Below are positions 3,934 to 59,422 of a DNA stretch of 64,000 nt, in pieces. Position 1 is the stretch's first letter; the number at the start of each line of letters is the position of its first letter. The stretch comes from a virus. The DNA is taken from positions 34,300 through 98,299 of the IMG/VR virus record IMGVR_UViG_3300020165_003419; one strand, written 5' to 3'. Position numbers and translations under genes: made by a program. A model generated the notes under the pieces. It was given only the letters and a program-made list of their open reading frames with translations, did no database searches and was not told the DNA's origin.

Positions 3934-6900
3934 TTAATTTTCTGGTTTTTTACACAAATCTCCATTAGCATTAAATGGATTATCGCGTAATTTGCTTCTT
4001 CTAAACCAGGGTAATATTCGGGCGCCCTTCGTGGGCTGTAGTGAAGCTTTTAGATTTTTAACGACCAGTGCAGCGTAATCTGTTGACTCGCCGTCGTCAG
4101 GCTCAAAATTAAACTTCCTGTTATAATAGTGGCTCTTAAATAGTTTTTTAATTCTACTTTTTGAGCTTTTAAGTAATGTTTGATCCCAATCATCCCAATC
4201 TAAATTAAATGGTGTAAAAACCTGCCTGTCGCTATACGATGCCCAAAGTGCATTGGATTCCGAATAATCGGCATCCCAATTCTCGGGTGCTCTTGGGAAT
4301 GTAACTTTTATTCCGGGCTTAGATTCGAAAGTAGGTTTGGTCGAGTCGAGCATTCCGAGGAGAGTCGGGAAAGATTCGGCGTCTGCAACGGTCTGTTCTC
4401 CAATAGATGGCAGAAAACCCAGATCGTTATAAATTGCCAAAATCGATGGCACTTTTTTGGCAGAATACACTCCATTTAATACATATTGCATTTCTGGAAC
4501 TTCTCTAAGCTGGTTAATCATGCAAAGTAATAGTTTGCTATTAGCTTCAATCGGAGCCGCGGCACCAACTGATAGATCTAGCATATCCATTTCTGTTGTT
4601 ACTAAAGTATATTTTTTGCCTGAAACTACTGCAGAGAACATCAATCCATATCTAGCTCCTAACTGCCCCGTGGTTCCTATGGGCGGCAGCGTTGTGTTCT
4701 GTTCGCCGTCTTGCCCAATTGGGTATACTAATTGCATATCTCCCGGATAAACTTCTGAAATATTAAGCGATAACTCATTACTTTTAATCCTTAATATAGC
4801 ATCGCTCGGGTTCATTTTTATTCCGTTAAGAGAGATATACTTCTCGATTACAAACGGGTGTGATTCTACAGTTGTGTAGCTCACCCCTGACGCATATTCA
4901 TTTATATCCCCAATAGGTACGACTAACTTGTTTGCGAAAGGAGTTAAGATATCATGTTGATCTTCAACGTGAAACTCTCCAGCCATATATATCACATTTC
5001 CATCTTGATCTGTATGATTGTGGTAATAACCAACATATTCGCCACCTTCTGGCATTGAAAGCTCTCCGCCGGCTGTATAATGTTCCTCGCCTTCGGTGGG
5101 AAGACCAATTGGCTCTTCAACTATTTTCTTATCTAGATCCAACGTTTCGCCACCTTGGGTCATGTTTGACAAGATATAATAAAATATGTCATTAATTTTT
5201 GGTTCTACGCCGGCGTGTGCCATGTTTGTTAGGAATTTGTCACTAAGGAATTTCAATTCTTCTAATACAAATTCTTTTAAAACAATTTTCGCGTCTTCTT
5301 CAGTTGCTTGAACTGCTTCGAAATTCTTTTCGTCCCTGTATGTCCTCAGACCTCTTGTTTTAAGCGGCCAACGGTATGGTGCTTGTGTTTCATCTAAAAC
5401 ATTTGCAATTTTGACGTCGTTTCTTTTATCAGTGATTCTTGGATATTTATAATTTTCTTGAGCGTCATTAATTCTAAATAAAGCTTGTAAGACTGCTTCC
5501 GGTGGATCTACAATTGTACCAGCGTCGACCAATCTGCCATAAGTTTGTACTGCCTGCTCTAGAAAAGCATACCAAAATTCGTCATCTTTAAAGGTGTTGA
5601 AGAATTCCCAGCCGGCGCCTTGAGCATCTCTAAAAGACCTCTCCATATTCTCAACTATATATTGTGGATATATTGTACTAAACACATTCTCAAAATCTGG
5701 TTTGAATATTGAAAATGTTGCGTATGTCTTCAAGTAATGCACACTAGCATAAATTCTACACGCGGATTTTATCAACCCTTGGATTCCTGCTTTGCCAGCG
5801 CGGGTTAATATTCTGTTGTATGGTACCTCTGTTACACAATCTGGATCTGATTGCAGTCTTTGATCTTCTGGAATTTCATTATACGTATCTGATATTTCTT
5901 TTGAGATAGAGCCAAAATCTACCAAGTCTGTATTGTGCGGCTTACACGGAGTAAACTCGGGGAACATTATGTTGACCATTCCCAGATATCCTTCGTGTTG
6001 TAAAGGTTTTATGTAGACTCCGGGGTTTGTATAAGACCCACCATAAGTGGTCGGATCAAGGTAGTAAACGCGGGCGTCATCTCCTCTTTCTAGTTGGTCC
6101 CTACTAACACCCATAATCATATCAGAATTTCTTATGGATCTTATCTCATTATCGTCGTCAAGAATGATCGCCTCTTCATATGGGGTGCCTGCTGCCGAGA
6201 GAGTTTGATCTTTTGCTACAACATATTCAGCATCTTCCTCAACCAGCGTGTCGTATTTTGCTCCATACATAAAAGCAAAATCATTCATTGCTATTTCTGT
6301 TTTAAACCTTTCAAATAGCTGGGTAACTACTTTACTGATATGTTCGTTTATAACTTGCTTAGACGGGATCACATCTAACACAGCGTTGTTGTTGATGAGA
6401 TCGTAAAGAAGAGCGACTGAAGGATTGTTTTCTGATTTTGATGAATAACATTCTGCAAATGTCGGATATTGTAGGGGATCTATTTCTCCAAAAGTATTGT
6501 CAATTGCGACAAACTCATAAAGCCTCTCATACATGAGAGGATCTCCATCAGAACTTGCTTTGTCTGATTTGTAATCTTTCCACTCGTCCGGACTCATCAT
6601 AGCTCTTAGATCTGCACGATACATTGCTTTTAAATTAAATATGTTATTAATATTTATTCTTGTTGTGTCAAGTGGTTCAAACGCAGTTCCTAGGTTCGAT
6701 ATTACTCCACCGGTTTCCATTAAATCTCCAAAATATGCGTCTATATCAAAACCGTATGCGAAACTCGTTCCCTCAAGGCTGCGGCGACCCTTGTTATTAT
6801 CTCTAAATTTAAGTTTTATATCTTCGTCTGCTTTACGACCATTGCGAACAATTCTCATAGTCTCAGTGCCCAAGTTTGTTCTAAGTGACACGTTAAAGCC

Positions 6901-45991: not shown

Positions 45992-46774
45992 TTACAATTC
46001 GATGGACATGTCGGCTTCTTCACCGCCGCCAACTGCGTCATCACCGCTATCTACCGCATCATCGTATGCCTGATTTGATGGTTCTTCCACAGAACCAGAA
46101 AGCTCATCTTCAAATTTATTGAAGTATAGTTTAAGATTAGCAATCAAATAATCATAGAACAATTCTTGATCTTCAGGATCCGAAAGAAGTTCATATGAAT
46201 CAATGATTGCAGTTTCAATTTTCTTAAACGATTGGTATGCCATATTACGACCGGTTTGATCACCATCTACACCAGATCCAAATTCTTCTTTTTCATCAGG
46301 CGCATCATCTTCCTCGGCGGCTTTCTTTTCGGCATCCGTACGAATATCAATAAACTTATCATCAACACCGTCAGCATCATCGACTACATCTATATCTACT
46401 TCGTTTAACTCAGCATCATCTGGGTCAGCCGCGTTGTTAGCAATTGCTGGTGTGAGAGTTTTGACTACAGCGTTAACAATATGCGCACGAAATGATTGTC
46501 TCTGTGTTTCGTTAGTAGTAAGAGATTTGAAATCTGTCTCAAGAACAGGTACTATCTTTTTGAGTAGTTCTTCAAGAACATTGATTCCAGTTGACTTATT
46601 TGGTGTTGGGCTTACGTCTGGGGTTGAAACCTCTGATAGCATTTTTTTGAGTTCTAGCTCAGCTAATTTAACAATGCTCTTTTCGAATAAAACTTTTGTA
46701 CTTGTTTTTTTCTGCTTGACAAAGCGGATTAAATCACGTATATTAGATCTAAGTGTTTTCTCTTCTTGGTTCAT
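45992..46774 (-). CDS. Acidic hypothetical protein (possible head/scaffold-like)
   Basis: 260 aa, very acidic, LxE sites (MLSE, ELNE). Confidence 0.55.
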   Translation of the reverse strand: MNQEEKTLRSNIRDLIRFVKQKKTSTKVLFEKSIVKLAELELKKMLSEVSTPDVSPTPNKSTGINVLEELLKKIVPVLETDFKSLTTNETQRQSFRAHIVNAVVKTLTPAIANNAADPDDAELNEVDIDVVDDADGVDDKFIDIRTDAEKKAAEEDDAPDEKEEFGSGVDGDQTGRNMAYQSFKKIETAIIDSYELLSDPEDQELFYDYLIANLKLYFNKFEDELSGSVEEPSNQAYDDAVDSGDDAVGGGEEADMSIEL

Positions 46775-48741
46775 CTTAATATGCCTCTTTCCATAATTAG
46801 TCTCATCACCTCATCAACGGTGACTAAATTAGTGTTTTCTCTTGTAACGAGCTTACTTCGTTGTTTTTCTGCTTCGTTATCATCTTCTATTTCTTTTTTA
46901 TTGCCCCAGGGTCCTCCCTTAGCACCAACTGCAGCACCGCCGGCTGCTCCCGCACCGGACATTTCTTGCATCGGCGAGGCTATTCCAAGTATAGAAAGCA
47001 AATCAAATACATTGTCTTCACCAATAAAGTCTTCTAATTCCTCAATGGCATCCTCGCTAGTTTCTGCAGCGCCCAATAATTCTCTCATGTCTGACGCGCT
47101 GTATGGAACTCCATTGGGTCTCAAAGAAGGCTTAACTGCAGTAGCAAAGGGATCCATCAATTTAACACCCTCTTTAATGTACTTTTCTGCTCCCGCCCAT
47201 CGACCGGCGTCTCCACCCTTGTTGCTGGCTCCTAATATTACCTTAGTCCCCTCTTCCAAGGGACCATCACGTCCAACATATTCGTATGCTGCGGTTAATG
47301 GCGAAGCATGGTTAGAGATACCTACCTCTACATTCGGCAGGTCTTGGGTTAGAAGGTTCCATATCTTTAGAGAATCTTCAGCAGTAATTTCACGTCCGTT
47401 CGGTAATTTTCGACCTCCACGTGTCGGCCGCGAAATTAAAACAATAACTTCATCAGCCATTTCTGCATATTTCCGCACCATATCTAGGTGCCCGTTGTGA
47501 GGTGGCTTAAAAGCTCCCGGAACAACAGCAATCGTTTTGCCAAAATCAGCATCGACGACCGGATCATCATCTTCGTCTTCTTCTGTCACAGGCTTAAATT
47601 CATAGCCAATGAAGTCTTCTTCATTTTCAGTTACACTTCCACCAAATCCACCACCAAGATTTCCTAAGATGAATTCTCCGGTAATTTTAACAGGGTTTGG
47701 TCCAAATTTTTCTTCATCCCTAAGCACTACCCCCTCGTGACTCATCAAGTCGCCCATGGGGCTTGTGAGACCCCTTAAAACGTCGTTCCCGAGCATACGA
47801 GTGGCATGCATAAAGAGGGCACCGTTGATAGCACGTTCTGCGTCAGCTTGGTCGACCAAACTAACTACCGGCACGCCATCGACTGCAAGTGCTTTATACA
47901 GTTCTTTGTGAAGAGGGTGTCGTGTTACCATCTTATCTCCGACTCGAACTTTTAAAGAATCGTAATCTGGATTCTGCGCACTGGAAAGCCAATCGGCAAG
48001 CGATTTAGTAATCTCCCGGTCGTCAGATATTTTAATTGTCAATGGTTCCGATAACGTACTACTAAAATCAATATCTGTGTCTTCTGTGCGGGTAGTTGGT
48101 ACGGAGCCATAAACCTTAAATCCTAATTCGGCTGCTATCGGATTCAACTTCTCTATAAGGGTTTCCATGATTTCTGGATCATAAGTAACTTCTCGACTGG
48201 GCGCTTTGATTCCATCTGGTCTCTCGGCTCCCGGTCTTACATTCCCTTTACTTGCGCCGGACTTTGCGACTTTTTCATAAAATTGGTTTAGTCCGTGAAT
48301 AGCTAAAAAGTTTTCATCGTAATCAGTAACATTCGTTGTACCTGTAACGTATTCAGTATTAAGGAACATCGATGGGTTATCCCACATTCCAAGTTCTTGT
48401 AATTGTGGCTTAATTGCCGGCAGCGCTTTATTTAGGATAGCTAGAAGTGTCTTAATAGCCGGTCGCATACCGTGACCTTCAGGAAATCTTTGGTCGACTC
48501 TTGACATTGTAATTCCGCTGATGTCAATTTCTTTTGACGACCCGCGGTCAACAGCAAATTGACGTTGTCCGTCAGTCTCAACAACTTTAAACGAAACGTT
48601 AACTCCATCGATTTTAACAGCACCAGCACCTTCTGTTTCAAGATGATCTTTGGCTTTGTTAAAAAAGTCGAGAAGGTCGTTACCTGTTCTTACAGAGCCC
48701 AAATCAAAAGGATGGGCCATATGTCCGGCAGCACCGCCCAT
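46771..48741 (-). CDS. RNA-ligase-like nucleotidyltransferase fused to HIGH-family nucleotidyltransferase
   Basis: VKIDGVN (motif I), NTEYV, HEGVVLR (IV), VKITGEF (V); then VPGAFKPPHNGH and YSASDMR. Confidence 0.7.
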   Translation of the reverse strand: MGGAAGHMAHPFDLGSVRTGNDLLDFFNKAKDHLETEGAGAVKIDGVNVSFKVVETDGQRQFAVDRGSSKEIDISGITMSRVDQRFPEGHGMRPAIKTLLAILNKALPAIKPQLQELGMWDNPSMFLNTEYVTGTTNVTDYDENFLAIHGLNQFYEKVAKSGASKGNVRPGAERPDGIKAPSREVTYDPEIMETLIEKLNPIAAELGFKVYGSVPTTRTEDTDIDFSSTLSEPLTIKISDDREITKSLADWLSSAQNPDYDSLKVRVGDKMVTRHPLHKELYKALAVDGVPVVSLVDQADAERAINGALFMHATRMLGNDVLRGLTSPMGDLMSHEGVVLRDEEKFGPNPVKITGEFILGNLGGGFGGSVTENEEDFIGYEFKPVTEEDEDDDPVVDADFGKTIAVVPGAFKPPHNGHLDMVRKYAEMADEVIVLISRPTRGGRKLPNGREITAEDSLKIWNLLTQDLPNVEVGISNHASPLTAAYEYVGRDGPLEEGTKVILGASNKGGDAGRWAGAEKYIKEGVKLMDPFATAVKPSLRPNGVPYSASDMRELLGAAETSEDAIEELEDFIGEDNVFDLLSILGIASPMQEMSGAGAAGGAAVGAKGGPWGNKKEIEDDNEAEKQRSKLVTRENTNLVTVDEVMRLIMERGILR

Positions 48742-48744
48742 AAT

Positions 48745-49839
48745 CTATCCCTTTGTTTTTAATGCGTACGCAATAATTTCCTTAAGGCGCACCTCGGAAA
48801 GATCAGACTTATGTTGGTCCATATCACGCTTACCAGGGAAGTCCTCTTCAACAACCTCTTCATCTTCTTCGTCTTCTTCGTCTAAACGACGTCCAGATGC
48901 ATCACGCCCAGCAACTCGATCGGCACGATCGGTTTTGGACTGTTCATCAACGGTTTCATCAGCGTCATCTGCTGCATCTTCCATTGATTCACCCTTATTG
49001 CCATCTTTATCGAGATCTAAAAAGTCTGGCTTTTCGCCTTCTTCTAACTCTTCATCATCATGATCGCGCTTAGCAGGGTGCCCATCGTGACCTTCGGCAA
49101 GCGAAGCATCTGTAATTTGGATATCCTCAACCGCGACATTTTCTAAGATTGTTCCATCTTTAAGTTTCATGTCATAGTGAGTAACCTTACCAAGCTTTTC
49201 GCTCCAGTTGTGAGAGATTGCTTCAGCCATTTGAGTACCACCATTGTGGCTTACACCGCCGTGGTGAACACAATAATGGTTAGGGGCAAATGCGCCTGCC
49301 TCTTCATTAATATTTTCTTCTACGCTTTCATTAAGCTTACTGAGGTCCATTTTAAAACCCCAGTTCTCTGAAAGGAGACTTTTCAACTCTCCGTTCTTCC
49401 AATCTTTTGTTGACATGTTAGTGTCTCCTTTTTGTAAATGTTCAAAATAAATAGTATTGTTTTGCTTTAAAGTGTCTTCAAAATCACGAAGACACATGCT
49501 GCCATCGCGATTAGCTTCAATTTCCATTTGTCGTAAGTGCGGATCTTTTTGGGCATATCCTTCTCCCATTTCACCAACATCATCAAATTTGCCTTCGCAA
49601 TTTTGTTTATGATGCACTAATTCATGGCCAAGAGAACGCAAAATATCTTTTGGATGACGGTTAGTCGTATACAGAGTCACGGCTTTTTCTTGTGGGTCAT
49701 AGTAAGCAGTTTTTCCTAATGGGTTCGCTGCATTTTTTGAATCTTGTTTTAAAAATAGCCGCGGCGGATTCTTGAACCCTATCTTTTCTTGCGCAAACGG
49801 CATAAACTGAAGAATTAGGTTTTTTAGGACGTCATTCAC
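48745..49839 (-). CDS. HExxH metallopeptidase with acidic C-terminal head-protein-like region
   Basis: RSLGHELVHHKQ..EIEAN; DFLDLDKDGNKGE Ca-binding-like loop; probable internal start at 49416. Confidence 0.7.
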   Translation of the reverse strand: MNDVLKNLILQFMPFAQEKIGFKNPPRLFLKQDSKNAANPLGKTAYYDPQEKAVTLYTTNRHPKDILRSLGHELVHHKQNCEGKFDDVGEMGEGYAQKDPHLRQMEIEANRDGSMCLRDFEDTLKQNNTIYFEHLQKGDTNMSTKDWKNGELKSLLSENWGFKMDLSKLNESVEENINEEAGAFAPNHYCVHHGGVSHNGGTQMAEAISHNWSEKLGKVTHYDMKLKDGTILENVAVEDIQITDASLAEGHDGHPAKRDHDDEELEEGEKPDFLDLDKDGNKGESMEDAADDADETVDEQSKTDRADRVAGRDASGRRLDEEDEEDEEVVEEDFPGKRDMDQHKSDLSEVRLKEIIAYALKTKG

Positions 49840-51429: not shown

Positions 51430-51996
51430 TTAAGTGATGTCATCCGCATACTTTACTTTTCTTGCTCTAATTTTTATATCGGGATACTGTTCTGATAATG
51501 CACTCACTGCTTCCACATTCTTTCCGGAATCATCAAAAAATAAAACGTCTGTGGCACCTGCATCAATCCTATCGGATATCCACGCTGCTTTATCTGCAGG
51601 GTCGGAACTACCTAAAAGTTCAAATGTAATCATAGATGTGTCAAGTCCAATACTCTCAAGATACTCTCTAATAGGACCTTCGGCCGCTGGATCTCTCGCC
51701 GTTAGAACGGCTATCTCCCTGCCTTCAGTGCCAGCGTTAAGAGCATTACGAATAATGTTAGTAATTTGTTTTATTTCTCTCGGATTGATAACATTATCAA
51801 ATTCAGAAAAGTCATACTCGTATCCTGGGTTCATTTTATGGTTCGCATATTCGTCGGTGGTCATTTCAATTCTTTCACCGGTGTCAGTTGTAATATGAAT
51901 ATTGGAATCAGACTTTGCGATTGTGTCATCAAAGTCAAACACACGCAGCTTTGATTCAGTTAAATACTTTCGCCAATTTTCAAGTAGGAGTTTCAT
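51430..51996 (-). CDS. Leader-tagged HAD phosphatase (T4 PNK-phosphatase / RNA-repair HAD-like)
   Basis: MKLLLENWRKYLTE leader; VFDFDDTI, VLTAR, K, FFDDSGKN. Confidence 0.8.
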   Translation of the reverse strand: MKLLLENWRKYLTESKLRVFDFDDTIAKSDSNIHITTDTGERIEMTTDEYANHKMNPGYEYDFSEFDNVINPREIKQITNIIRNALNAGTEGREIAVLTARDPAAEGPIREYLESIGLDTSMITFELLGSSDPADKAAWISDRIDAGATDVLFFDDSGKNVEAVSALSEQYPDIKIRARKVKYADDIT

Positions 51997-52448
51997 TATG
52001 AATTTCCATCAAGAGTAGAAGTTATTGCGCTAAGAGCTTCACTATCATTCATACGATGATCACTGCCAACACTAATTAGTTTAGCTCCGTACATCTTCGA
52101 TAATAAACGACTATCACCATATGGTATAACATCATCCTGGCGAGAGTGTAATATCGTTGCTCCGGGCGGTATTGGGCACGTTGGGCAATATTTCTTCCAA
52201 GCCGGCGCAATAAGGACCATCTTACCGAGAGGTAGCTGCGCCGCCATGGCAACTGCACCCCCTCGTGAAGAGCCTACGACTGCATCCGGTAAGTGTTCTT
52301 CGTATGCATCTTTAGCTGCATCAACACTCCCTTGCCAATCGTCTCTTGAAAGCCGGGGCTCAATAACCTCATGCCCTGCCGCAGCAAGTGCTTTGGGTTT
52401 TGAGCCACCAGGCTTTGATTCTAATCCGTGGAGAAACAAAACTTTCAT
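51996..52448 (-). CDS. YqiA/YcfP-like alpha/beta hydrolase
   Basis: LFLHGLES, VVGSSRGG nucleophile elbow, HSRQDDVIP, SDHR. Confidence 0.85.
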   Translation of the reverse strand: MKVLFLHGLESKPGGSKPKALAAAGHEVIEPRLSRDDWQGSVDAAKDAYEEHLPDAVVGSSRGGAVAMAAQLPLGKMVLIAPAWKKYCPTCPIPPGATILHSRQDDVIPYGDSRLLSKMYGAKLISVGSDHRMNDSEALSAITSTLDGNS

Positions 52449-53071
52449 TTAGGGTTTCCGAGCATAATTTTTAATACATCTTTATTGCCAGCAATTTCTC
52501 TAGTATACCACCCGTTGATGCCTGGATATTTACCTTCGGGGTGTTCCCCTAACCAATTTATAGGCTTACCGGTTCCAAGAATTGACTGTACTTTTTCAGA
52601 ATCTTCGACAGCCGGCACATTATAATATTTTAACATAATATGCGCAATAGATTTAGACATTTCTGCGTAGTGTCCCGATTGGGATAACAATTCGGCAGTT
52701 TTATTAATGTAAGCATCCTTGCCGGCTTTAGAGCCATCATGCCCAGCCACTGAGAGTTTGGTTCCTGCGGACTTACGTTTTCCCCCGCGTAAAGCGTCGG
52801 GTTCGGGGTCGTCATCAAGATCAACAGCTACCCAGACATCTTCGTCCCCAGGTAACTGTCCTGAGTTTTTATAATCATAGTTCCCGCCGATGGGTGCGTA
52901 TGCAGTCTGTATCAGATCAAACAATTGATCTGAGAGATCAACATTCAATGGATCTCTTGATGCTTTGATGTCGGCTGGGTCTATCTCGGTCCACTGACCT
53001 TTGTCAGTATCCAGATCTTCCCATTTTTTTTCATTTAAATACTCTCGCCAATTTTCAAGTAAGAGTTTCAT
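52445..53071 (-). CDS. Leader-tagged hypothetical protein
   Basis: MKLLLENWREYLNE leader; LFDLIQTAYAPIGG core (possibly GNAT-like, unconfirmed). Confidence 0.7.
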   Translation of the reverse strand: MKLLLENWREYLNEKKWEDLDTDKGQWTEIDPADIKASRDPLNVDLSDQLFDLIQTAYAPIGGNYDYKNSGQLPGDEDVWVAVDLDDDPEPDALRGGKRKSAGTKLSVAGHDGSKAGKDAYINKTAELLSQSGHYAEMSKSIAHIMLKYYNVPAVEDSEKVQSILGTGKPINWLGEHPEGKYPGINGWYTREIAGNKDVLKIMLGNPK

Positions 53072-54096
53072 TATATGCTCCTCAAACTAAATAGCCCAAG
53101 ATCGGTTATAACAAAATTCTTGGTACCGGGTCGAACCATGACGTTTCCAGAATGAATATCTTTGGGTTGCCAGTTTTGTTGATCGAGAAAATGCTTCATT
53201 GCTCGCATCAAACCTTCGGCTTCAGGAAAGTTTCTCTCAACTTTCTCTCCAGCTTTGCCGGCAGCACTAACTCTACCGTGTCCACCGTGAACAGGCACAA
53301 TTTGTTTTTGAAGAATGTCTGTGTAAATCTCGCTAAGTTCTCTTTTAAAATACTTAGGCAACTGCTCATAGAATGAGGAATCTTGTTCTAAATAAGGAAG
53401 AGAAGCCTCTGCCACCAAATCAGATAACGTCTCCGCTGGTAAAAATTCCCAGTTGTGTCCGGACATTTCTGTTATCTTTTTCATCACAATGTTTGGTACT
53501 TCCTGCATAATATCTTGATAAACGTTTGGGTCACCTTGTCTCAACATAAGGTTTCCATACAAACCTTGTATGATAACTTCATAGATTGCTTCAGGATCTT
53601 TAAATAATCTAGTATATTTTTCGTGTCTTGACAAATCTGCATCATCTGAATTCAGAGCAAACAAGTCTGCTTTAACTCTATCGGGAATGTCTTCTAAGAG
53701 TTCCATAAATATAAAATAATCTTTTGTAGTCTCTTCTACATTATACACGTCTGGAAGGTATTTTGCAAATTTTTGATTCATCGAGGCTTTGTTATCCATA
53801 GCAAAGCGATAGTTTTGCGCTTCTCTGTCTGCCGTATCAGGACCTCCATAGAGTCTTTTTACAACATGCTTCATTGCATTGCGTTCACCAGTCTTTTTAT
53901 TCTCGACCAAATAAACTTCTCCCATCATACCCTTACCTAATTTGCGGTCAAAGTAAAATCCAGCATCTTCGGCGCCTTGCTTAGCACGAACTTTTTTATC
54001 TACTTCTACTTGATTCCAAGATTTGCCATCCATATCCATGGTGGCTTCTTCATCTTCGTTTACAAATTTTCGCCAATTTTCAAGTAGGAGTTTCAT
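53071..54096 (-). CDS. Leader-tagged protein kinase-like enzyme
   Basis: MKLLLENWRKFVNE leader; LGKGMMGEVY, AMK, E (alphaC), FMELL, KDIHSGNVM, ITDLG. Confidence 0.85.
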   Translation of the reverse strand: MKLLLENWRKFVNEDEEATMDMDGKSWNQVEVDKKVRAKQGAEDAGFYFDRKLGKGMMGEVYLVENKKTGERNAMKHVVKRLYGGPDTADREAQNYRFAMDNKASMNQKFAKYLPDVYNVEETTKDYFIFMELLEDIPDRVKADLFALNSDDADLSRHEKYTRLFKDPEAIYEVIIQGLYGNLMLRQGDPNVYQDIMQEVPNIVMKKITEMSGHNWEFLPAETLSDLVAEASLPYLEQDSSFYEQLPKYFKRELSEIYTDILQKQIVPVHGGHGRVSAAGKAGEKVERNFPEAEGLMRAMKHFLDQQNWQPKDIHSGNVMVRPGTKNFVITDLGLFSLRSI

Positions 54097-54425
54097 TAAA
54101 ATTGTATTCCCTCTTCTCGATACAGCGACGCTTCAATAATATTTAGAACTGTTTTAAGAACAGTTTTATCAGAAGCTAACTCTGGGCTTTCGAAAATGCC
54201 TTCATTTTCAGCATTATAAACATTCAGTTCGTCTGCTAAACCTTGGACATTTTTTATGCCCATTTTATATAAGTGAGAAGGGATATACATATTACTAGGT
54301 GTATGTGTGACAACATAGTGAGTTTTACCTTTGATTTTATTATTGCGTTTAGTGACATGAAAAGGCTCAATAGCACTTTTGTCTTCACCCAAATACCGGT
54401 GCCAATTTTCTATTAAAAGTTTCAT
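54096..54425 (-). CDS. Leader-tagged small hypothetical protein
   Basis: MKLLIENWHRYLGE leader. Confidence 0.7.
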   Translation of the reverse strand: MKLLIENWHRYLGEDKSAIEPFHVTKRNNKIKGKTHYVVTHTPSNMYIPSHLYKMGIKNVQGLADELNVYNAENEGIFESPELASDKTVLKTVLNIIEASLYREEGIQF

Positions 54426-56842
54426 GATATAAATCTTCTCCAGTTTCCTACAAGCTGTTCATTGACATCGTCAGTCCACGTCCCGGACATGTTTTGCGCT
54501 TGAATTTGAGCGAGAGTCTTATTAAATATAACCGTGAGATTATCTTCATCATCCATTTCACCGGTTACTAATTCTTTAAAAAGTTCTACACGTTCGGCAT
54601 TATCGTCTGCGTCGACTTTAAACTGTATTTGTACAACTCTCTCTTCACCACTTCTAGTAACAGTATAATGAGAAATATCTAAATGATATTCTGTTCCAAC
54701 TTCTTGTCTTGGGGCAGCTAACATATTCTGTCTTAGAAGCAGTTTAAACTCGCGAGAATCTAAAAGCCTCTCTAGTATCTGCGGAGACATTTTCCATTCC
54801 CCTGAGTCGTACTCAAAGCTCACAGAGGCATATGATTCATAGCTATCCTCATACTCTCCATCAGTTTCCACGTCCCACTCATAAGAATCTATATCTCCGT
54901 TCTCAATATCCATAGCGAGAGTCATATATTCGCCACCGACCATTTGACCTTCGCGCTTGAAGTATGTTGACAAAATTTCTTTCCACGCATCATGACGGTC
55001 ATCGATTAAAGAGTCAATTTTTTGACAAGCATCCGCGAACTCCTCTACTAGAGCATAATAAGATTGCCCGCCCAACTCTGGGTGTTCTAGATTTACGCCG
55101 CATGTCCAAAAGATGGTGTCGCCTTGACGACCCACGTAAGCTCGATCAGTAAAAAAATCTCCATATATATCGTTAATCGCATCTGGAGAATATTGAACAA
55201 CCCCGTCGATCGCGGTTGGTAGCCTACTCCAATCACTCACGTTCCACTCGATCACAACTTCGGCCGCACCCCTAATATACACGTCTTCTCCACCGTCATC
55301 TTCGACGTCAAAGCTAATTTTTGTAACAGCCGCACGTTGGTTCCAAGTATCAATAATCTCTTGACACTGATTTTCGTATGATGTTCTGATGTCTCCGATT
55401 AAGTCTGCGTCCAAATCATCTTCGGTTTCTGTGTTCTGCTTCATATTGCCGCTAACACGTTGTTCTATCCCTAACAATTGTCTCATTAGTGCTTCACGAC
55501 CCGATGCATTGGCGGTGTCCTCGTAGGAGCCACCAAAGATCATAAATCTATCTAAATTAATCTTGCCGTTTTCTTGTGGCATGTTTGCGATGACTTCTTC
55601 TTGGTTATCACGAGACCAGTCAGTAACTCTATCGACTAAACCGGGAATATCAGCACCGTATACTCGTTTCTCAGGCATCCCAACGTCTTGTCCGTCATCC
55701 CAGCGCTCCGGTTCATCTGTGTCATAATATCTAACATGACGAATGCGCGCCCGAGAAATTGGATTGATTTCACCAACATCATAGCGCTGATCATCATAAA
55801 AGATTTCACCTTCTTGAATTTCTTGCTCTGCGCTGTCTATATTACCCGTATTTGTGGTGCTCAGAAGCTCTTCTGTTTCCACAACATACGCAACCGCCCC
55901 GTGACCCCGGGCTTCTGCTACAGCACATTTATAATAGGACTGATAGGCGTTTGTACGGCTAGACGGAGAGTGGCAAGAGGTAATTTTGTCAAAATCACTC
56001 ATTCTGAGCACATCTATCGGATGTCGAGTAATAATAATGGAAAATTTGTCATTATCGATGTTATTTATCTCTTTTTTGATGAATGCAGCGTTCTTTTGCC
56101 AATACTCGCCGTATTTTGTTGCTAATTCGGTTAAATCATAGCCAGCGGGTCCTGCAACGCCCGGATTTACGATATATAAGTACATTTGATCGTTAATTCT
56201 GTTTAAATTCTCCAATTCTTTCTCATCGAGTGCAGCATTACGCATTTTCACTGTAACTTCGTGCCACTTGGCGATTGGTTGACCATTTGGACCTTTATAT
56301 CCAATACCAGCCAAGTAATCATAGACTTTTTGGTACAATGCGTCCTTTTTTCTGCTTAAATCGGCTATTTTTTTGAATAATTTGCCGATTTTCATCTGAA
56401 TCTTCTTAGTTTTCTTCTTTGGTTCCGGGTCACCAACCAACATACCCAGTAAATCGTCTGATGTGCGCAGATCACGCTCAGCAAAGACCATGCCCTTGTC
56501 CCAATCTACATCATACTCTTGAGATTCGAAGAATTTTGCAAACTTTCCAAGCTCTGTAGCTGGATCAAGGGTTGGAAACGGTATCACCGCGCGCATTTTG
56601 CCACCAAAAAGGTCATTTAAAGGCAGATTTGCTGGGTCGAGGTCATCTAATACATCTTCCAACACTCTCATCTCGTCTTCAGTGACTTCTCGGAGTACTT
56701 TTTCGTTAACAGGTACACAATTAGGTACATTTCTGTCACCTTTTTTCTTCATTCCCTTTTGCGTATAGCCATCCCAACATTTTTCTTGTAAAACATTAAG
56801 CAACGCGGTGGTTTTAGCTAAAATTTGTTCATCACTTAACAT
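54422..56842 (-). CDS. Large acidic hypothetical protein (probable internal head protein)
   Basis: N-term LQE|KCWDGYTQKGMKKKGDRNVPNCVP|VNE module; C-term QLVGNWRRFIS resembles the leader. Confidence 0.65.
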   Translation of the reverse strand: MLSDEQILAKTTALLNVLQEKCWDGYTQKGMKKKGDRNVPNCVPVNEKVLREVTEDEMRVLEDVLDDLDPANLPLNDLFGGKMRAVIPFPTLDPATELGKFAKFFESQEYDVDWDKGMVFAERDLRTSDDLLGMLVGDPEPKKKTKKIQMKIGKLFKKIADLSRKKDALYQKVYDYLAGIGYKGPNGQPIAKWHEVTVKMRNAALDEKELENLNRINDQMYLYIVNPGVAGPAGYDLTELATKYGEYWQKNAAFIKKEINNIDNDKFSIIITRHPIDVLRMSDFDKITSCHSPSSRTNAYQSYYKCAVAEARGHGAVAYVVETEELLSTTNTGNIDSAEQEIQEGEIFYDDQRYDVGEINPISRARIRHVRYYDTDEPERWDDGQDVGMPEKRVYGADIPGLVDRVTDWSRDNQEEVIANMPQENGKINLDRFMIFGGSYEDTANASGREALMRQLLGIEQRVSGNMKQNTETEDDLDADLIGDIRTSYENQCQEIIDTWNQRAAVTKISFDVEDDGGEDVYIRGAAEVVIEWNVSDWSRLPTAIDGVVQYSPDAINDIYGDFFTDRAYVGRQGDTIFWTCGVNLEHPELGGQSYYALVEEFADACQKIDSLIDDRHDAWKEILSTYFKREGQMVGGEYMTLAMDIENGDIDSYEWDVETDGEYEDSYESYASVSFEYDSGEWKMSPQILERLLDSREFKLLLRQNMLAAPRQEVGTEYHLDISHYTVTRSGEERVVQIQFKVDADDNAERVELFKELVTGEMDDEDNLTVIFNKTLAQIQAQNMSGTWTDDVNEQLVGNWRRFIS

Positions 56843-58622
56843 TTATTTTCCTAACTGCCTCTTTCATTGACTTAGAACCGCGGCATTTCCACTTCTTACG
56901 AGATAATGCATTGGCACATGGGGGGTTTTTGCACTTTTTAATCTTTGCTGACCGTGCACAGTACGCATCACCCTTAGCTGTCCCGGGTCTGATGCGGTCT
57001 CCGCCGCCTTTTGCTTGTCCTTTTTGCCCAAATGATCGACATTTGCCGTCTACACGCTTGGCAAAGCGCTTTCCTTTCGAGGGTTTACAAGGTTTTTTGG
57101 CTTTTTCTTCAAGACTTCTCCGCGGCGGTCTCTGGTAAGCAGCAGGGCTCTCTAGGCATTTTTTGTATTCTCTCATTGAGGCACCATCAGGAACTTTTTC
57201 ATCACAGAGAGGGTCTGCTTCAAGACCTTGCGCTAACCAATGTGGTGGAAGTTTCTTGCCTTCGCTGAATTTATGTTTCTTTTCATCTAAAACTTGAGCT
57301 AATTCGTCCTCAATCATCATTTGTAAAGATTCTTTTTTAGAATTGCCCCAATTGGCAGCGCCAACTTTACGACATTTAACTAAAGCTCCGGATGCATATG
57401 CGCTCGGCCATACTTTATAGCGTGATTTTACCTTATTATAGCAAGCATCCTTTTTAGCAGATGACTTTTCTTCATCGAGAGTATACATATCATAATCATC
57501 TTCGTTAGGATCACCAAAATCTCTGCGTCCCACTTCATCCGACAGATCTCGATACATCTCTTCTGTGTCGTCATATGGCGTGGTCTCTCCATTTCGATGC
57601 GTTACCAAAATAACAGGCTTTCCGTCGCTAGCAATCTCAATGGAGGCTTCTACTCCAAACTTGTCTGCTAAATCTTGCACCTCATCGCGCATAAGATCTT
57701 CAGGACTCATACGTTCTTCACCAGTATCAATATCAGCAACAGCGCGACCGGGTTCATATTCGGTTTCTTCTAAACCTCTTGTTAGTTCTACTGGTCCATC
57801 TTGCTGCAACTGTTGCAGTTGGTCTTCAAGAACTTCTAATTTATCACGAAGATTCATTACTTCAGATTGTTTTGCAAAATAAGCTTTACTATTTCGAACG
57901 TCACTGAGATCTGTGTCATCATCAGCGGAGTCATCCATATTTTTCATACCTTTTTCAGCGTTGATAATTGCCTGTTCGAGCCTCGCAATCTTTTTTGTAA
58001 TGCCGGCTATGTGTGTTTGCCTATCTTCTCTAACAGCAGAAAGCTCTTCTTTGATCACAATAATTAACTTTTCGTTATTTTTACCGTAAGTTTCACAAGG
58101 ATCGTTCCCGCATCCACAATTCATACCTTCGTTAACTGGCTCTTCTGGTTCTTCTGTTTGGTCGAGAATTTTTTTGATTTGATCAGATTGCCCTTTGTGC
58201 ATTTTAGAAGCACCAGCAAGCTCGTCAGCTATCTTTTCTAACTCCTTTTCATGCTCTTTTGTGTGCGTCTCAGTAACCACAGCTTCTATTTCTTCTTCAA
58301 TTATTTGATACAAATCCATTTTATATAATTCCTCATTTTTTTTCTTAGATTTTGCTTTCTTGCCCCATGATTTACCCTTGCCACGTTCTTTACACGCGCC
58401 CGGTGTAGGTCTGCACGCAGGATATTTTTTACGTTTTTCGCCTGAACCGCGCCCACAAGCCTTGTAACCGCCACTTCCATCAGGAGAATTACAATCAACC
58501 CATCCTTTTTTAGAACCCTTGGCTCCCTTCCTACCAAACCAGTCTCTTAAAGAGGACTCTTTGCTAGATTCAGACCCGGCTTTTTTCTTTTTTTCGTCCA
58601 GTGGACCATATAAGTCATTCAT
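56832..58622 (-). CDS. Modular basic/acidic polyprotein-like head protein
   Basis: Lys/Cys-rich modules separated by acidic helices ending in (L/V)xE; start moved to MNDLYG. Confidence 0.65.
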   Translation of the reverse strand: MNDLYGPLDEKKKKAGSESSKESSLRDWFGRKGAKGSKKGWVDCNSPDGSGGYKACGRGSGEKRKKYPACRPTPGACKERGKGKSWGKKAKSKKKNEELYKMDLYQIIEEEIEAVVTETHTKEHEKELEKIADELAGASKMHKGQSDQIKKILDQTEEPEEPVNEGMNCGCGNDPCETYGKNNEKLIIVIKEELSAVREDRQTHIAGITKKIARLEQAIINAEKGMKNMDDSADDDTDLSDVRNSKAYFAKQSEVMNLRDKLEVLEDQLQQLQQDGPVELTRGLEETEYEPGRAVADIDTGEERMSPEDLMRDEVQDLADKFGVEASIEIASDGKPVILVTHRNGETTPYDDTEEMYRDLSDEVGRRDFGDPNEDDYDMYTLDEEKSSAKKDACYNKVKSRYKVWPSAYASGALVKCRKVGAANWGNSKKESLQMMIEDELAQVLDEKKHKFSEGKKLPPHWLAQGLEADPLCDEKVPDGASMREYKKCLESPAAYQRPPRRSLEEKAKKPCKPSKGKRFAKRVDGKCRSFGQKGQAKGGGDRIRPGTAKGDAYCARSAKIKKCKNPPCANALSRKKWKCRGSKSMKEAVRKINVK

Positions 58623-58696
58623 TTTTAGATATTTCCAAAGCTTTCTCCAATAAATAGATCGGAATCTCACTATTGTCAATGTCTTCAGGGCATAAT

Positions 58697-59422
58697 CTAC
58701 CTACACGCTCTAGGTTTTTCTGGCATGCCATTGCATAAAGCAGTTAAAGCTAAATCTATGTTCAAGTTTTGTATTGGAGATACCCAAATCATATTCTCTT
58801 GTATTTGGAATGAAGGGCTTCTTTCTACATCAACAGCCCAGAGCACTCCAACAATTTTTCCATCGTTGTCATATATTACTGATCCACTACAACCAAACCA
58901 TCCATAAGTTTGCAAAATAATTTGCCTTCCTGCTTCTGGGTGTGTTTCGAAACCTGCAACGTGTCCACGGAAGCTCAGCAAACTGTGCCAGGAAGGAAAT
59001 CCTGAATATGTGATAGTCTGACCAACTTCTATTAATTCTGAACGTGGCTTCCAACGCATTGGTTTCGCATATTCAAACTCACTAGGCAAATATAACAAAG
59101 ACATGTCATTTAATGGGTCTTTATAAACTAAGACTGCCATCCGGCGTTCAGTCTCTGTCGCTATCAAGTACGAAGTGCCAAGCGCCCCATCTGCCACGTG
59201 GTGCGCTGTTAGAACAAGATGCATTCCTTTGTAGTTAATTAGCCCTCCGGTACCATGACCTTGTCCGGTCAGCACTCTTACAGACGCATTGCGTACATTT
59301 TTCTCGACTACACTAAGCGAGTTGCTTATTTGTGTCGTTAGATTTTTATTCTGAGTTGTCGGTGTTGCAATTGCTGTAACTGGCAACAATAACGCTGCCA
59401 CAATTAATAGTATTTTCTTCAT
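58697..59422 (-). CDS. Secreted trypsin-like (S1) serine protease
   Basis: Signal peptide; LTAHHV, NDMSLL, FGCSGS triad. Confidence 0.85.
   Translation of the reverse strand: MKKILLIVAALLLPVTAIATPTTQNKNLTTQISNSLSVVEKNVRNASVRVLTGQGHGTGGLINYKGMHLVLTAHHVADGALGTSYLIATETERRMAVLVYKDPLNDMSLLYLPSEFEYAKPMRWKPRSELIEVGQTITYSGFPSWHSLLSFRGHVAGFETHPEAGRQIILQTYGWFGCSGSVIYDNDGKIVGVLWAVDVERSPSFQIQENMIWVSPIQNLNIDLALTALCNGMPEKPRACR

What the first reader, a model, noticed from the sequence alone, without database searches (positions are those of the whole stretch)
51430..56842. Shared 14-aa N-terminal leader on unrelated proteins: a candidate capsid-targeting cargo system
Seen: four near-adjacent genes with unrelated bodies start with the same leader: MKLLLENWRKYLTE (HAD phosphatase), MKLLLENWREYLNE (unknown), MKLLLENWRKFVNE (kinase) and MKLLIENWHRYLGE (small unknown). 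Similarity stops right after Glu14. A related string ends the 806-aa protein (QLVGNWRRFIS), and one lies inside 48745..49839 (LKSLLSENW...KLNE). Known: T4 internal proteins carry a short N-terminal capsid-targeting sequence that the gp21 prohead protease removes after Glu in (I/L)xE. Inference: this is a different targeting tag that loads a swappable set of enzymes into the head for injection with the DNA, possibly for host takeover or anti-defence.
Basis: partly seen in the sequence, partly recalled or inferred. Interest (0 to 1): 0.85.

Follow-up and report, generated by a model that had tools for sequence, protein, structure and literature searches.

The report
Shared capsid-loading-like leader on phage enzymes
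An uncultured marine T4-like phage lineage starts dozens of unrelated enzymes with the same 14-residue peptide, which ends in the cutting motif of its head-maturation protease; this most likely loads them into the capsid for delivery with the DNA, but no virion data exist yet.

Summary
Four minus-strand genes (starts 51996, 53071, 54096, 54425) begin MKLL[LI]ENW[RH]x[YF][LV]xE; the pattern occurs 4 times against 0.00 expected. A fifth copy lies elsewhere in the same 98-kb, about 50% complete viral contig.

These include protein kinases, HAD phosphatases, GNAT, NUDIX, SAM lyase and nucleases. It is essentially absent from 185,579 cellular genomes.

- Conservation drops sharply after Glu14, and the end [YF]-[LIV]-x-E fits the L/I-x-E rule of T4 gp21.
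- All 10 large leader-bearing records encode a gp21-type protease, including all 8 that are at least 90% complete.
- In a complete relative, tagged proteins flank the protease gene.
- Homologues of one cargo body carry at least six different leaders, all ending hydrophobic-x-Glu exactly at the start of the body.

The best reading is therefore a T4-style capsid-targeting, protease-clipped leader with a new sequence and a much larger enzyme cargo (confidence about 0.65). Packaging and cleavage have not been observed, and no cultured phage carries the tag.

The C-terminal "related string" on the 806-aa protein is not conserved. The internal one (49327-49386) sits at a gene-fusion joint.

This scan noted the same tag earlier on other genomes (e1-5378476, e1-5808108).

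The parts
54384..54425 (-). Leader (14 codons, MKLLIENWHRYLGE) of the 109-aa gene
   Evidence: leader HMM score 22 bits.
54096..54425 (-). Tagged 109-aa protein of unknown function. Its start overlaps the stop of the 806-aa gene (ATGA).
   Evidence: No Pfam or PHROG hit. Its body is fused to the 208-aa body in P0022.
54055..54096 (-). Leader (MKLLLENWRKFVNE) of the kinase gene
   Evidence: HMM score 31 bits.
53071..54096 (-). Tagged Ser/Thr protein kinase (341 aa)
   Evidence: Pkinase N-lobe and PHROG kinase hits. Of the 112 homologues, most carry PF00069 and nearly all full-length ones keep the leader, down to 25% body identity.
53030..53071 (-). Leader (MKLLLENWREYLNE) of the 208-aa gene
   Evidence: HMM score 28 bits.
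52445..53071 (-). Tagged 208-aa protein with a GNAT-like acyltransferase fold. It is the conserved anchor cargo of the locus.
   Evidence: AF2 mean pLDDT 90; the leader is helix 2-12 at pLDDT 53-69 and is not confidently packed on the body. Foldseek top hits are GNAT acetyltransferases, TM 0.4-0.55. 171 homologues carry at least 6 leader types.
51996..52448 (-). Untagged alpha/beta-hydrolase-like gene (150 aa) inside the cassette array
   Evidence: Weak Pfam hits to Abhydrolase_6 and UPF0227. Conserved next to the 208-aa gene in G001.
51955..51996 (-). Leader (MKLLLENWRKYLTE) of the HAD gene
   Evidence: HMM score 33 bits.
51430..51996 (-). Tagged HAD-superfamily phosphatase (188 aa). HAD motif I (DFDDT) begins at residue 21, right after the leader.
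   Evidence: DUF2608 and PHROG polynucleotide-kinase (phosphatase) hits. 17 tagged homologues in IMG/VR.
54422..56842 (-). 806-aa protein that starts the translationally coupled array. It is not tagged itself, but homologues in other phages carry the leader.
   Evidence: BLASTP to the tagged L018 (813 aa), L087, L004 and L105. The L272 homologue starts MNINDWRSFLQE.
56832..58622 (-). 596-aa Cys-rich basic/acidic protein upstream of the array. Homologues in related phages carry the leader or a variant of it.
   Evidence: The L272 393-aa homologue starts MEHILKKWNNYLVE. Its neighbour cluster occurs in 39 loci, and 6 of the 44 members are tagged.
49327..49386 (-). Internal leader-like string (LKSLLSENWGFKMDLSKLNE) at the joint of a two-module fusion protein (48745-49839)
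   Evidence: The C-terminal module is a separate ORF in L272, and a separate gene with a type-2 leader in G003.
58697..59422 (-). Trypsin-like serine protease with a signal peptide. It is the conserved upstream flank of the leader locus.
   Evidence: Trypsin_2, E=1.9e-12. Syntenic in G001. Present in 24 of 119 leader loci.

Best explanation
The 14-residue N-terminal peptide MKLL-x-ENW-R-x-[YF]-[LIV]-x-E is most likely a capsid-targeting sequence of the T4 kind. It would form an amphipathic helix that docks the tagged protein onto the scaffolding core while the prohead is built. The phage's gp21-type prohead protease would then cut it off after Glu14, leaving the enzyme free inside the head to leave with the DNA at infection. 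The tag is carried by a large, fast-changing set of genes, mostly enzymes. These sit in translationally coupled cassette arrays whose members are exchanged between related phages, with the conserved leader DNA probably serving as the patch of homology. Shown here: the tag, its strict N-terminal position, the sharp boundary at Glu14, its restriction to one lineage, the presence of the protease, the cassette turnover, and the interchangeability of leaders. Inferred: docking to the scaffold, cleavage, packaging and ejection.
For: (1) The tag occurs 4 times in the window against 0.00 expected, and 5 times in the contig.
Their bodies form 89 BLAST clusters. These include Pkinase, zeta/AAA kinases, GNAT, NUDIX, RNase_T, GDSL, SAM lyase, nucleotidyltransferases and HAD.
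(3) At positions the search pattern did not constrain, 142/152 have Y/F at 11, 144/152 have L/I/V/M at 12 and 127/152 have E at 14. Conservation then collapses. This is the L/I-x-E-then-cut rule of T4 gp21 (PMC9026906). T4 gp23 itself is cut after FLTE.
(4) The core motif W-[RK]-x-[FY]-[LIV]-x-E occurs 29 times in the first 30 residues of ORFs and once in 184,600 internal residues, across four genomes.
(5) All 10 large leader-bearing records, including all 8 that are at least 90% complete, encode Peptidase_S77. The five records also searched for a gp23 capsid protein (G001-G005) all have one. Shorter contigs are 24-68% fragments of genomes of about 180-200 kb.
(6) In the complete syntenic relative G001, a tagged acidic protein lies between the portal and protease genes, where T4 has core genes 67 and 68. 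The next gene after the protease carries ..TWRTFLNE near its N-terminus.
(7) Homologues of the 208-aa body carry at least 6 different leaders, all ending hydrophobic-x-Glu exactly where the conserved body starts.
(8) Kinase homologues keep the leader nearly unchanged down to 25% body identity.
(9) Synonymous codons vary, so selection acts on the peptide.
(10) AF2 gives a helix at residues 2-12 with low confidence, in front of a well-folded body.
(11) The tag is not found on cellular proteins. Among 112 pattern hits in cellular genomes, most (about 55) lie inside one conserved motif (ENWRW.GVPF) and most of the rest are very short ORFs. Only 10 are full leaders, on short virus-like MAG contigs.
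(12) T4 Ip proteins likewise share only an N-terminal leader (PMC12373910), and T4 ipII and ipIII share 30/30 nt of it.
Against: There are no virion proteomes, and no cultured phage carries the tag. It is absent from 50,697 deposited phage records and from the nearest isolates. The window's own contig lacks the head module, so the protease is inferred from relatives. The leader has no sequence homology to T4 MKTYQEFIAE. L/I-x-E is a short motif. The time of expression is unknown: CTANTTA motif copies lie within 30 nt of many starts, including the 596-aa gene that heads the array, but the genes they precede are not only structural ones. The cargo is acidic (median pI 4.9), unlike the basic T4 internal proteins. 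Some cargo proteins reach 900 aa, and a genome may have 14 or more tagged genes, which is a heavy load for one head. Two other protease-like genes are frequent neighbours of the locus.
Confidence: 0.65

Rival explanations
1. The leader is a docking helix for some other common partner: a phage hub protein, a chaperone, a membrane or pole site, or a phage-made compartment. The genome encodes a ParB-like protein, and a first-stage note reports a tubulin-like one. On this reading the tag has nothing to do with the capsid, and the terminal Glu is simply part of the helix.
For: The peptide is predicted as a short helix with hydrophobic residues spaced as in an amphipathic helix, and it is N-terminal only. 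One tagged protein is ParB-like and lies next to a tubulin-like gene (note e1-6020898). No packaging data exist.
Against: This does not explain why at least six unrelated leader types on the same body all end hydrophobic-x-Glu exactly at the body boundary. It does not explain why tagged proteins flank the prohead protease gene in G001, or why the ending matches known gp21 sites such as FLTE in T4 gp23.
Confidence: 0.13
2. The leader is a propeptide removed by a protease encoded at the locus itself, either the trypsin-like enzyme at 58697-59422 or the HELVHH Zn-peptidase-like protein at 48745-49839. It would serve, for example, to activate or export the enzymes.
For: These two genes are the commonest conserved non-cargo neighbours of leader loci, in 24 and 29 of 119 loci, and are syntenic in G000 and G001. 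Some S1 proteases are Glu-specific (own knowledge).
Against: The co-occurrence is what conserved synteny within one lineage would give. Tagged genes elsewhere, such as the ParB-like gene and the head-module gene, have no such neighbour. The trypsin-like protein has a signal peptide, whereas the tagged proteins have no secretion signal. The gp21 rule already fits.
Confidence: 0.07
3. The conserved stretch is mainly a DNA or mRNA element: a patch of homology for cassette shuffling, or a translation-initiation region. The peptide would be a by-product.
For: Three of the four window leaders are nearly identical in DNA. The leader uses codons that are rare genome-wide: CTC at Leu3 in 49% against 5-12%, and CGA at Arg9 in 58% of Arg codons against 11-17%. 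The genes are stop/start coupled.
Against: About half of the instances use other synonymous codons while the amino acids stay the same. Variant leaders keep W-[RK]-x-[FY]-[LI]-x-E with different DNA. Wholly different leader sequences occupy the same place with the same hydrophobic-x-Glu ending. A recombination role is compatible with the main explanation and probably part of it.
Confidence: 0.07
4. The leader is a degradation or timing tag read by a host protease. It fits the loose ClpX N-terminal motif Met-basic-hydrophobic(3)-X5-hydrophobic. Alternatively it is a recognition site for a modifying enzyme, as was proposed for another phage tag in this scan.
For: The pattern M-K-L-L-L-x5-Y matches ClpX N-motif 2 (own knowledge, Flynn et al. 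2003). A shared phage tag in RB43 was tied to a radical-SAM enzyme rather than the capsid (note e1-127136).
Against: The ClpX motif does not explain the invariant E6, N7, W8 and E14. No radical-SAM or other single enzyme recurs beside leader loci among 1,253 neighbouring ORFs.
Confidence: 0.05

Closest known systems
Capsid targeting sequence (CTS) of phage T4 internal proteins IPI, IPII, IPIII and Alt, removed by prohead protease gp21
   Same: Both are short N-terminal peptides (10-19 aa in T4, 14 here) shared by otherwise unrelated proteins. Both end in L/I-x-E. Both occur in genomes with a gp21-family protease, a gp23-type capsid and a gp22-like scaffold. In both, the genes lie in variable loci and the leader is conserved at DNA level (T4 ipII and ipIII: 30/30 nt). 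Sources: PMC9026906, PMC12373910.
   Different: There is no sequence similarity to MKTYQEFIAE. The lineage is different: an uncultured marine clade nearest to Flavobacterium phage immuto, Microcystis phage Mel-JY01 and RM378. The scale is far larger, with 6-14 tagged genes per genome and at least 89 cargo families. The cargo is mostly acidic enzymes rather than small basic proteins. Function has not been tested.
Propeptides of head and ejection proteins in phiKZ- and SPN3US-like jumbo phages, cut by a diverged gp21 homologue
   Same: Many internal head proteins are processed after Glu at a short motif by a T4-related protease, and many are ejected (PMC9026906, PMC5694885).
   Different: Those propeptides are long and are not one shared leader sequence. 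The cleavage motif differs (S/A/G-x-E). The evidence there is experimental.
Cargo-loading peptides of encapsulins
   Same: Both are short, transferable peptides that direct diverse enzymes into an HK97-fold shell.
   Different: The encapsulin peptides are usually C-terminal, are not cleaved, bind the shell protein itself, and involve no virus or DNA delivery (own knowledge).

Membership tests
T4-type capsid targeting sequence / internal-protein system | A short N-terminal peptide shared by proteins with unrelated bodies | tested here: met
   4 in the window and 5 in the contig. 172 in IMG/VR on 89 body clusters. N-terminal against internal occurrence is 29 against 1.
T4-type capsid targeting sequence / internal-protein system | The leader ends in the gp21 cleavage motif (L/I)-x-E | tested here: met
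   L/I/V/M at position 12 in 144/152 and E at position 14 in 127/152. Conservation ends there. Other leader types on the same body also end hydrophobic-x-Glu.
T4-type capsid targeting sequence / internal-protein system | The genome encodes a gp21-family prohead protease and a T4-type capsid and scaffold | tested here: inconclusive
   Met in relatives: 10/10 large leader-bearing records have PF03420, and the five searched for PF07068 (gp23) all have it. Not found in the window's own contig, a roughly 50% fragment that lacks the head module.
T4-type capsid targeting sequence / internal-protein system | Sequence homology of the leader to the T4 CTS (MKTYQEFIAE) | tested here: not met
   Only the general pattern is shared: M-K start, spaced hydrophobic residues and a hydrophobic-x-E end. 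T4 sequences were read.
T4-type capsid targeting sequence / internal-protein system | Genes lie in variable loci, with the leader conserved at DNA level | tested here: met
   Comparison of G000 with G001 shows conserved flanks and swapped tagged cassettes. Leader DNA and unusual codons are shared.
T4-type capsid targeting sequence / internal-protein system | Tagged proteins are present in proheads and virions, and the leader is removed | not testable with these tools
   No isolate carries the tag, and no proteome is available.
T4-type capsid targeting sequence / internal-protein system | Mature proteins are ejected into the host with the DNA | not testable with these tools
   This needs an infection experiment.
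Tag recognised by an adjacent modifying enzyme (radical-SAM type, as proposed for RB43 in note e1-127136) | One enzyme family is encoded beside nearly all tagged genes | tested here: not met
   Clustering of 1,253 ORFs from 119 leader loci found no such enzyme. The recurrent neighbours reflect lineage synteny.
Sec/Tat signal peptide | A positively charged n-region followed by an uninterrupted hydrophobic core of about 10 or more residues | tested here: not met
   The sequence shows directly that the hydrophobic run is only LLL and is followed by E, N, W, R and K.

The most novel reading that the evidence does not exclude
A whole clade of roughly 180-200-kb marine T4-superfamily phages uses at least two families of cleavable N-terminal address tags. 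With them it loads a large, rapidly exchanged arsenal of enzymes into the capsid and injects them with the DNA. The enzymes include protein kinases, acetyltransferase-like proteins, phosphatases, SAM lyase, NUDIX, nucleases and ParB-like proteins. This would be a viral counterpart of a secretion-system effector repertoire, with the tag's DNA doubling as the recombination handle for cassette exchange.
Probability: 0.55. Interest if true: 0.8.

Novelty: new variant of a known kind. Interest (0 to 1): 0.68.

Why it matters
If the tag works like the T4 capsid-targeting sequence, a simple sequence rule would list the virion-delivered proteins of an abundant, uncultured group of ocean phages. These proteins act before any phage gene is expressed. 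T4 has three small internal proteins and Alt. These phages would carry up to a dozen or more enzymes, including kinases and a SAM lyase. That points to enzymatic host takeover and anti-defence at the moment of injection. The same cargo body also carries several different leaders, each ending in the protease motif. This gives a natural series for studying how targeting peptides and scaffolds co-evolve, and it offers new tags for engineered protein packaging. The claim can be tested without a host, by protease co-expression assays and by searching marine viral metaproteomes.

Tried and rejected
- I looked for cultured phages carrying the tag or its cargo. tblastn of the HAD protein, the kinase, a 20-aa leader piece and a variant-leader homologue against 50,697 phage records gave no isolate.
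- The nearest isolates by capsid and baseplate (Flavobacterium phage immuto, Microcystis phage Mel-JY01) have no M-K-hydrophobic(3)-E-x-W start.
- Full-text searches for the motif strings and for CTS-like leaders in marine phages found no description.
- I tested whether the recurring CTANTTA motif marks late genes. It lies within 30 nt of many starts, including the head of the array, but it is not enriched overall and the genes it precedes are of mixed kinds. The time of expression stays open.
- I tested whether each genome has its own leader 'dialect'. L272 mixes canonical and shortened variants, so the shared determinant is W-[RK]-x-[FY]-[LI]-x-E rather than a genome-specific form.
- The last 14 residues of the capsid propeptide (..ARLLENQAKELLRE) resemble the leader, but the leader HMM does not score them, so I treat this as unproven.
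- The C-terminal string on the 806-aa protein is not conserved in homologues.

Full report
**What is there.** The window is the last 64 kb of a 98,299-bp IMG/VR viral contig. The contig is linear and CheckV rates it about 50% complete. Nearly all genes lie on the minus strand.

Between 58622 and 51430 lies a tight, largely stop/start-coupled array:
- a 596-aa protein;
- an 806-aa protein;
- a 109-aa protein;
- a 341-aa protein kinase;
- a 208-aa protein;
- a 150-aa alpha/beta-hydrolase-like protein;
- a 188-aa HAD phosphatase.

Four of these start with MKLL[LI]ENW[RH]x[YF][LV]xE, exactly as reported. The back-translated pattern hits the window four times, all at these starts. None is expected in 100 dinucleotide shuffles. 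A fifth copy, MKLLMESWKKFVNE on a ParB-like protein, lies in the part of the contig outside the window.

The bodies are unrelated:
- The 188-aa protein is HAD/PNK-phosphatase-like.
- The 341-aa protein is a Ser/Thr kinase. It has Pkinase hits, and most of its 112 homologues are annotated PF00069.
- The 208-aa protein has a GNAT-like fold. The AF2 model has mean pLDDT 90, and the top Foldseek hits are acetyltransferases at modest TM scores.
- The 109-aa protein has no known relatives in Pfam or PHROGs.

**How widespread it is.** These hold 172 tagged ORFs, often in tandem, with up to six in one locus.

The start codon is the true start. In-frame stops lie a few codons upstream, and a Shine-Dalgarno-like G-rich patch sits at -12 to -8.

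At positions the pattern did not constrain:
- position 11 is Y or F in 142 of 152 distinct examples;
- position 12 is L, I, V or M in 144;
- position 14 is E in 127.

Information content then falls from 3.1 bits to below 0.9.

The bodies (residues 16 onward) fall into 89 BLAST clusters, 59 of them singletons. Pfam finds the following among them: protein kinase, zeta-toxin/AAA_33 kinases, GNAT, NUDIX, RNase T, GDSL lipase, SAM lyase, nucleotidyltransferases, HAD and 5'-nucleotidase.

The same pattern was scanned in one genome for each of 185,579 prokaryote species and gave 112 hits. Most of these (about 55) lie deep inside one conserved internal motif (ENWRW.GVPF), which I recognise from memory as glucose-6-phosphate dehydrogenase. 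Most of the rest are very short ORFs that lack the rest of the leader. Only 10 are full leaders, and all of these are on short MAG contigs with other features of these phages.

**Which phages.** Ten of ten large leader-bearing records encode a T4 gp21-type prohead protease (Peptidase_S77) above Pfam's cut-off. This includes all eight rated at least 90% complete, three of them with terminal repeats. The five records that were also searched for a gp23-type capsid protein all have one.

Ten shorter contigs are 24-68% fragments whose estimated full size is again about 180-200 kb. No complete leader-bearing genome lacks the protease.

By capsid and baseplate proteins, the nearest isolates are Flavobacterium phage immuto, Microcystis phage Mel-JY01 and Rhodothermus phage RM378, at 30-47% identity. 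The two checked, immuto and Mel-JY01, do not have the tag.

The window's contig is colinear with the complete 203-kb genome G001 at roughly 50-70% protein identity for most syntenic genes. By that map, its missing half should hold the head genes.

**Link to the head.** In G001 the gene order is terminase, portal, two conserved genes, then a 182-aa acidic protein starting MKLLLEHWNRYLQE. A small membrane protein and the prohead protease follow. Next comes a 356-aa protein whose residues 17-24 read TWRTFLNE. T4 has its prohead core genes 67, 68 and 22 at these positions.

The capsid proteins of G001, G003 and G005 have a propeptide ending ..ELL[RK]E just before the conserved mature N-terminus. 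T4 gp24 is cut after MAKINELLRE and T4 gp23 after ..GSFLTE (the L/I-x-E rule is from PMC9026906). Several tagged proteins end their leader in exactly FLTE or YLTE.

**Position and selection.** Across four genomes, the core W-[RKNQH]-x-[FYH]-[LIVM]-x-E occurs 29 times within the first 30 residues of ORFs. It occurs once in about 184,600 internal residues.

Synonymous codons vary among instances while the amino acids stay the same, so the peptide is under selection. At the same time, the leader prefers codons that are rare in these genomes: CTC, CTA and CGA. This points to shared descent and exchange at the DNA level. T4 does the same: ipII and ipIII share all 30 nt of their CTS.

Kinase homologues keep the leader almost unchanged even when the body has diverged to 25% identity.

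**The most telling result.** Of the 171 homologues of the 208-aa body, the 120 whose sequences were listed were checked. They do not all carry the same leader. About half have the canonical tag. The others have:
- shortened forms (MKSHKRWKNFIKE, MNKRWKTFIKE);
- a 25-residue basic helix ending KLNE;
- the second leader family of this genome (MKITESRLRQIIYEEL...EIIAE);
- MNLIRAYIRTVLLE;
- MRTTVRGLKRLINE;
- the 10-residue MIKLxDLLxE.

In the alignment, all of these end with hydrophobic-x-Glu exactly one residue before the conserved start of the body (KKWxDF). That Glu is at least 90% conserved across the leader types.

This is the expected pattern if the leader is an exchangeable address that must finish in the cleavage site of a conserved Glu-specific protease. 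It is hard to explain by a DNA signal, a degron or a structural role in the enzyme.

AF2 agrees on the last point. Residues 2-12 form a helix with pLDDT 53-69 in front of a body at pLDDT above 90. In the HAD protein, catalytic motif I begins right after the leader.

**Cassette behaviour.** G000 and G001 share the flanks of the locus: the trypsin-like protease, the 806-aa protein, the 208-aa protein plus hydrolase, and a 108-aa membrane protein. Between them the tagged genes differ. G000 has the 109-aa protein and the kinase where G001 has three other tagged genes. G000 has the HAD where G001 has a tagged 5'-nucleotidase-like gene.

Homologues of the untagged 806-aa and 596-aa proteins carry the leader, or a variant of it, in other phages.

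Complete genomes hold 6 to about 14 tagged genes.

**The two extra strings.** QLVGNWRRFIS at the C-terminus of the 806-aa protein is not shared by homologues. It is no more than chance or a recombination scar.

The internal string at 49327-49386 sits at the joint of a fusion between an HELVHH peptidase-like module and an FAPNHYC module. In L272 the second module is a separate ORF. In G003 it is a separate gene with a type-2 leader aligned to this very stretch. It is therefore best read as an internalised leader that keeps an L-x-E.

**Rivals.** I tested it by clustering 1,253 ORFs from the 119 loci. No such enzyme recurs, and the frequent neighbours reflect synteny.

Two protease-like neighbours remain minor candidates for the processing enzyme: the trypsin-like protein with a signal peptide and the HELVHH protein.

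The loose ClpX N-motif fits the first 11 residues but not the invariant E6, N7, W8 and E14. A purely nucleic-acid role is contradicted by the synonymous variation and by the unrelated leaders that share the same ending.

**Weak points.**
- No virion data exist.
- The time of expression is unknown.
- The cargo is acidic, with median pI 4.9 against a genome background of 6.2, unlike the basic T4 internal proteins.
- The L/I-x-E motif is short.
- The protease is inferred from relatives, not seen in this contig.

**Comparison with what is known.** T4 internal proteins share only an N-terminal leader that directs packaging (PMC12373910). The CTS is 10-19 residues long, binds the core and is removed at L/I-x-E. 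It has been suggested to be a general way for T4-like phages to load diverse proteins (PMC9026906).

The present system works like that on every point that could be tested. It differs in four ways: it has no sequence homology to the T4 CTS, it belongs to a distant uncultured marine clade, it is far larger, and it mainly carries enzymes.

No paper in the searchable library describes it. This scan flagged the same or sister tags earlier on other genomes. I did not count those notes as evidence.

**Verdict.** It is a new variant of a known kind.

Noticed in passing
G000 contig outside the window (genome 457-1431 and about 5557-5889); G003 141454-144047 (L256): A second shared leader family, MK[IL][TS]K.[KQ]L[KR]QII.EE, also ends I-x-E. 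It forms a five-gene cluster in G003 next to type-1 leaders, and it replaces the type-1 leader on homologues of the 208-aa body (P0100).
   Followed up: partly
window 48745-49839 (-): This is a fusion of an HELVHH Zn-peptidase-like module (DUF6647) with an FAPNHYC module and a long acidic tail. The two modules are separate genes in related phages. Its C-terminus (..EVRLKEIIAYALKTKG) resembles the type-2 leader.
   Followed up: partly
window 58697-59422 (-): A trypsin-like serine protease with a clear signal peptide is conserved immediately upstream of the leader locus in G000 and G001, and occurs in 24 of 119 leader loci. Its role is unknown.
   Followed up: partly
window 56700-56790 (N-terminus of the 806-aa protein) and several sites in 56832-58622: A Cys-rich basic motif (CW.GY..KGMKK....VPNCVP) is shared at 78-86% DNA identity with cyanophages S-T4 and P-SSM2 and with marine single-virus genomes. 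In one MAG contig it directly follows the leader (L159).
   Followed up: no
window 58623-58679 (-): The frame upstream of the ATG at 58622 reads ..IYWRKLWKYLK-M. This looks like a decayed leader, and a CTATTTA motif lies inside it.
   Followed up: no
window 46771-48741 (-): A 656-aa protein with a ligase-like KxDG motif near the N-terminus also has a cytidylyltransferase-like HIGH domain. It is conserved in G001, G003, G005 and Mel-JY01, and it lies close to the tagged HAD/PNK-phosphatase-like gene.
   Followed up: no
L244:5471-5713 (G001), and the equivalent genes in G003 and G005: A ribosomal protein S21-like gene sits inside the head module just after the prohead protease. The same arrangement is annotated in Microcystis phage Mel-JY01.
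   Followed up: no
IMG/VR tagged ORFs (L001-L119): The cargo bodies are markedly acidic: median pI 4.9, with 80% below 6, against a median of 6.2 for other ORFs of the complete genomes.
   Followed up: yes
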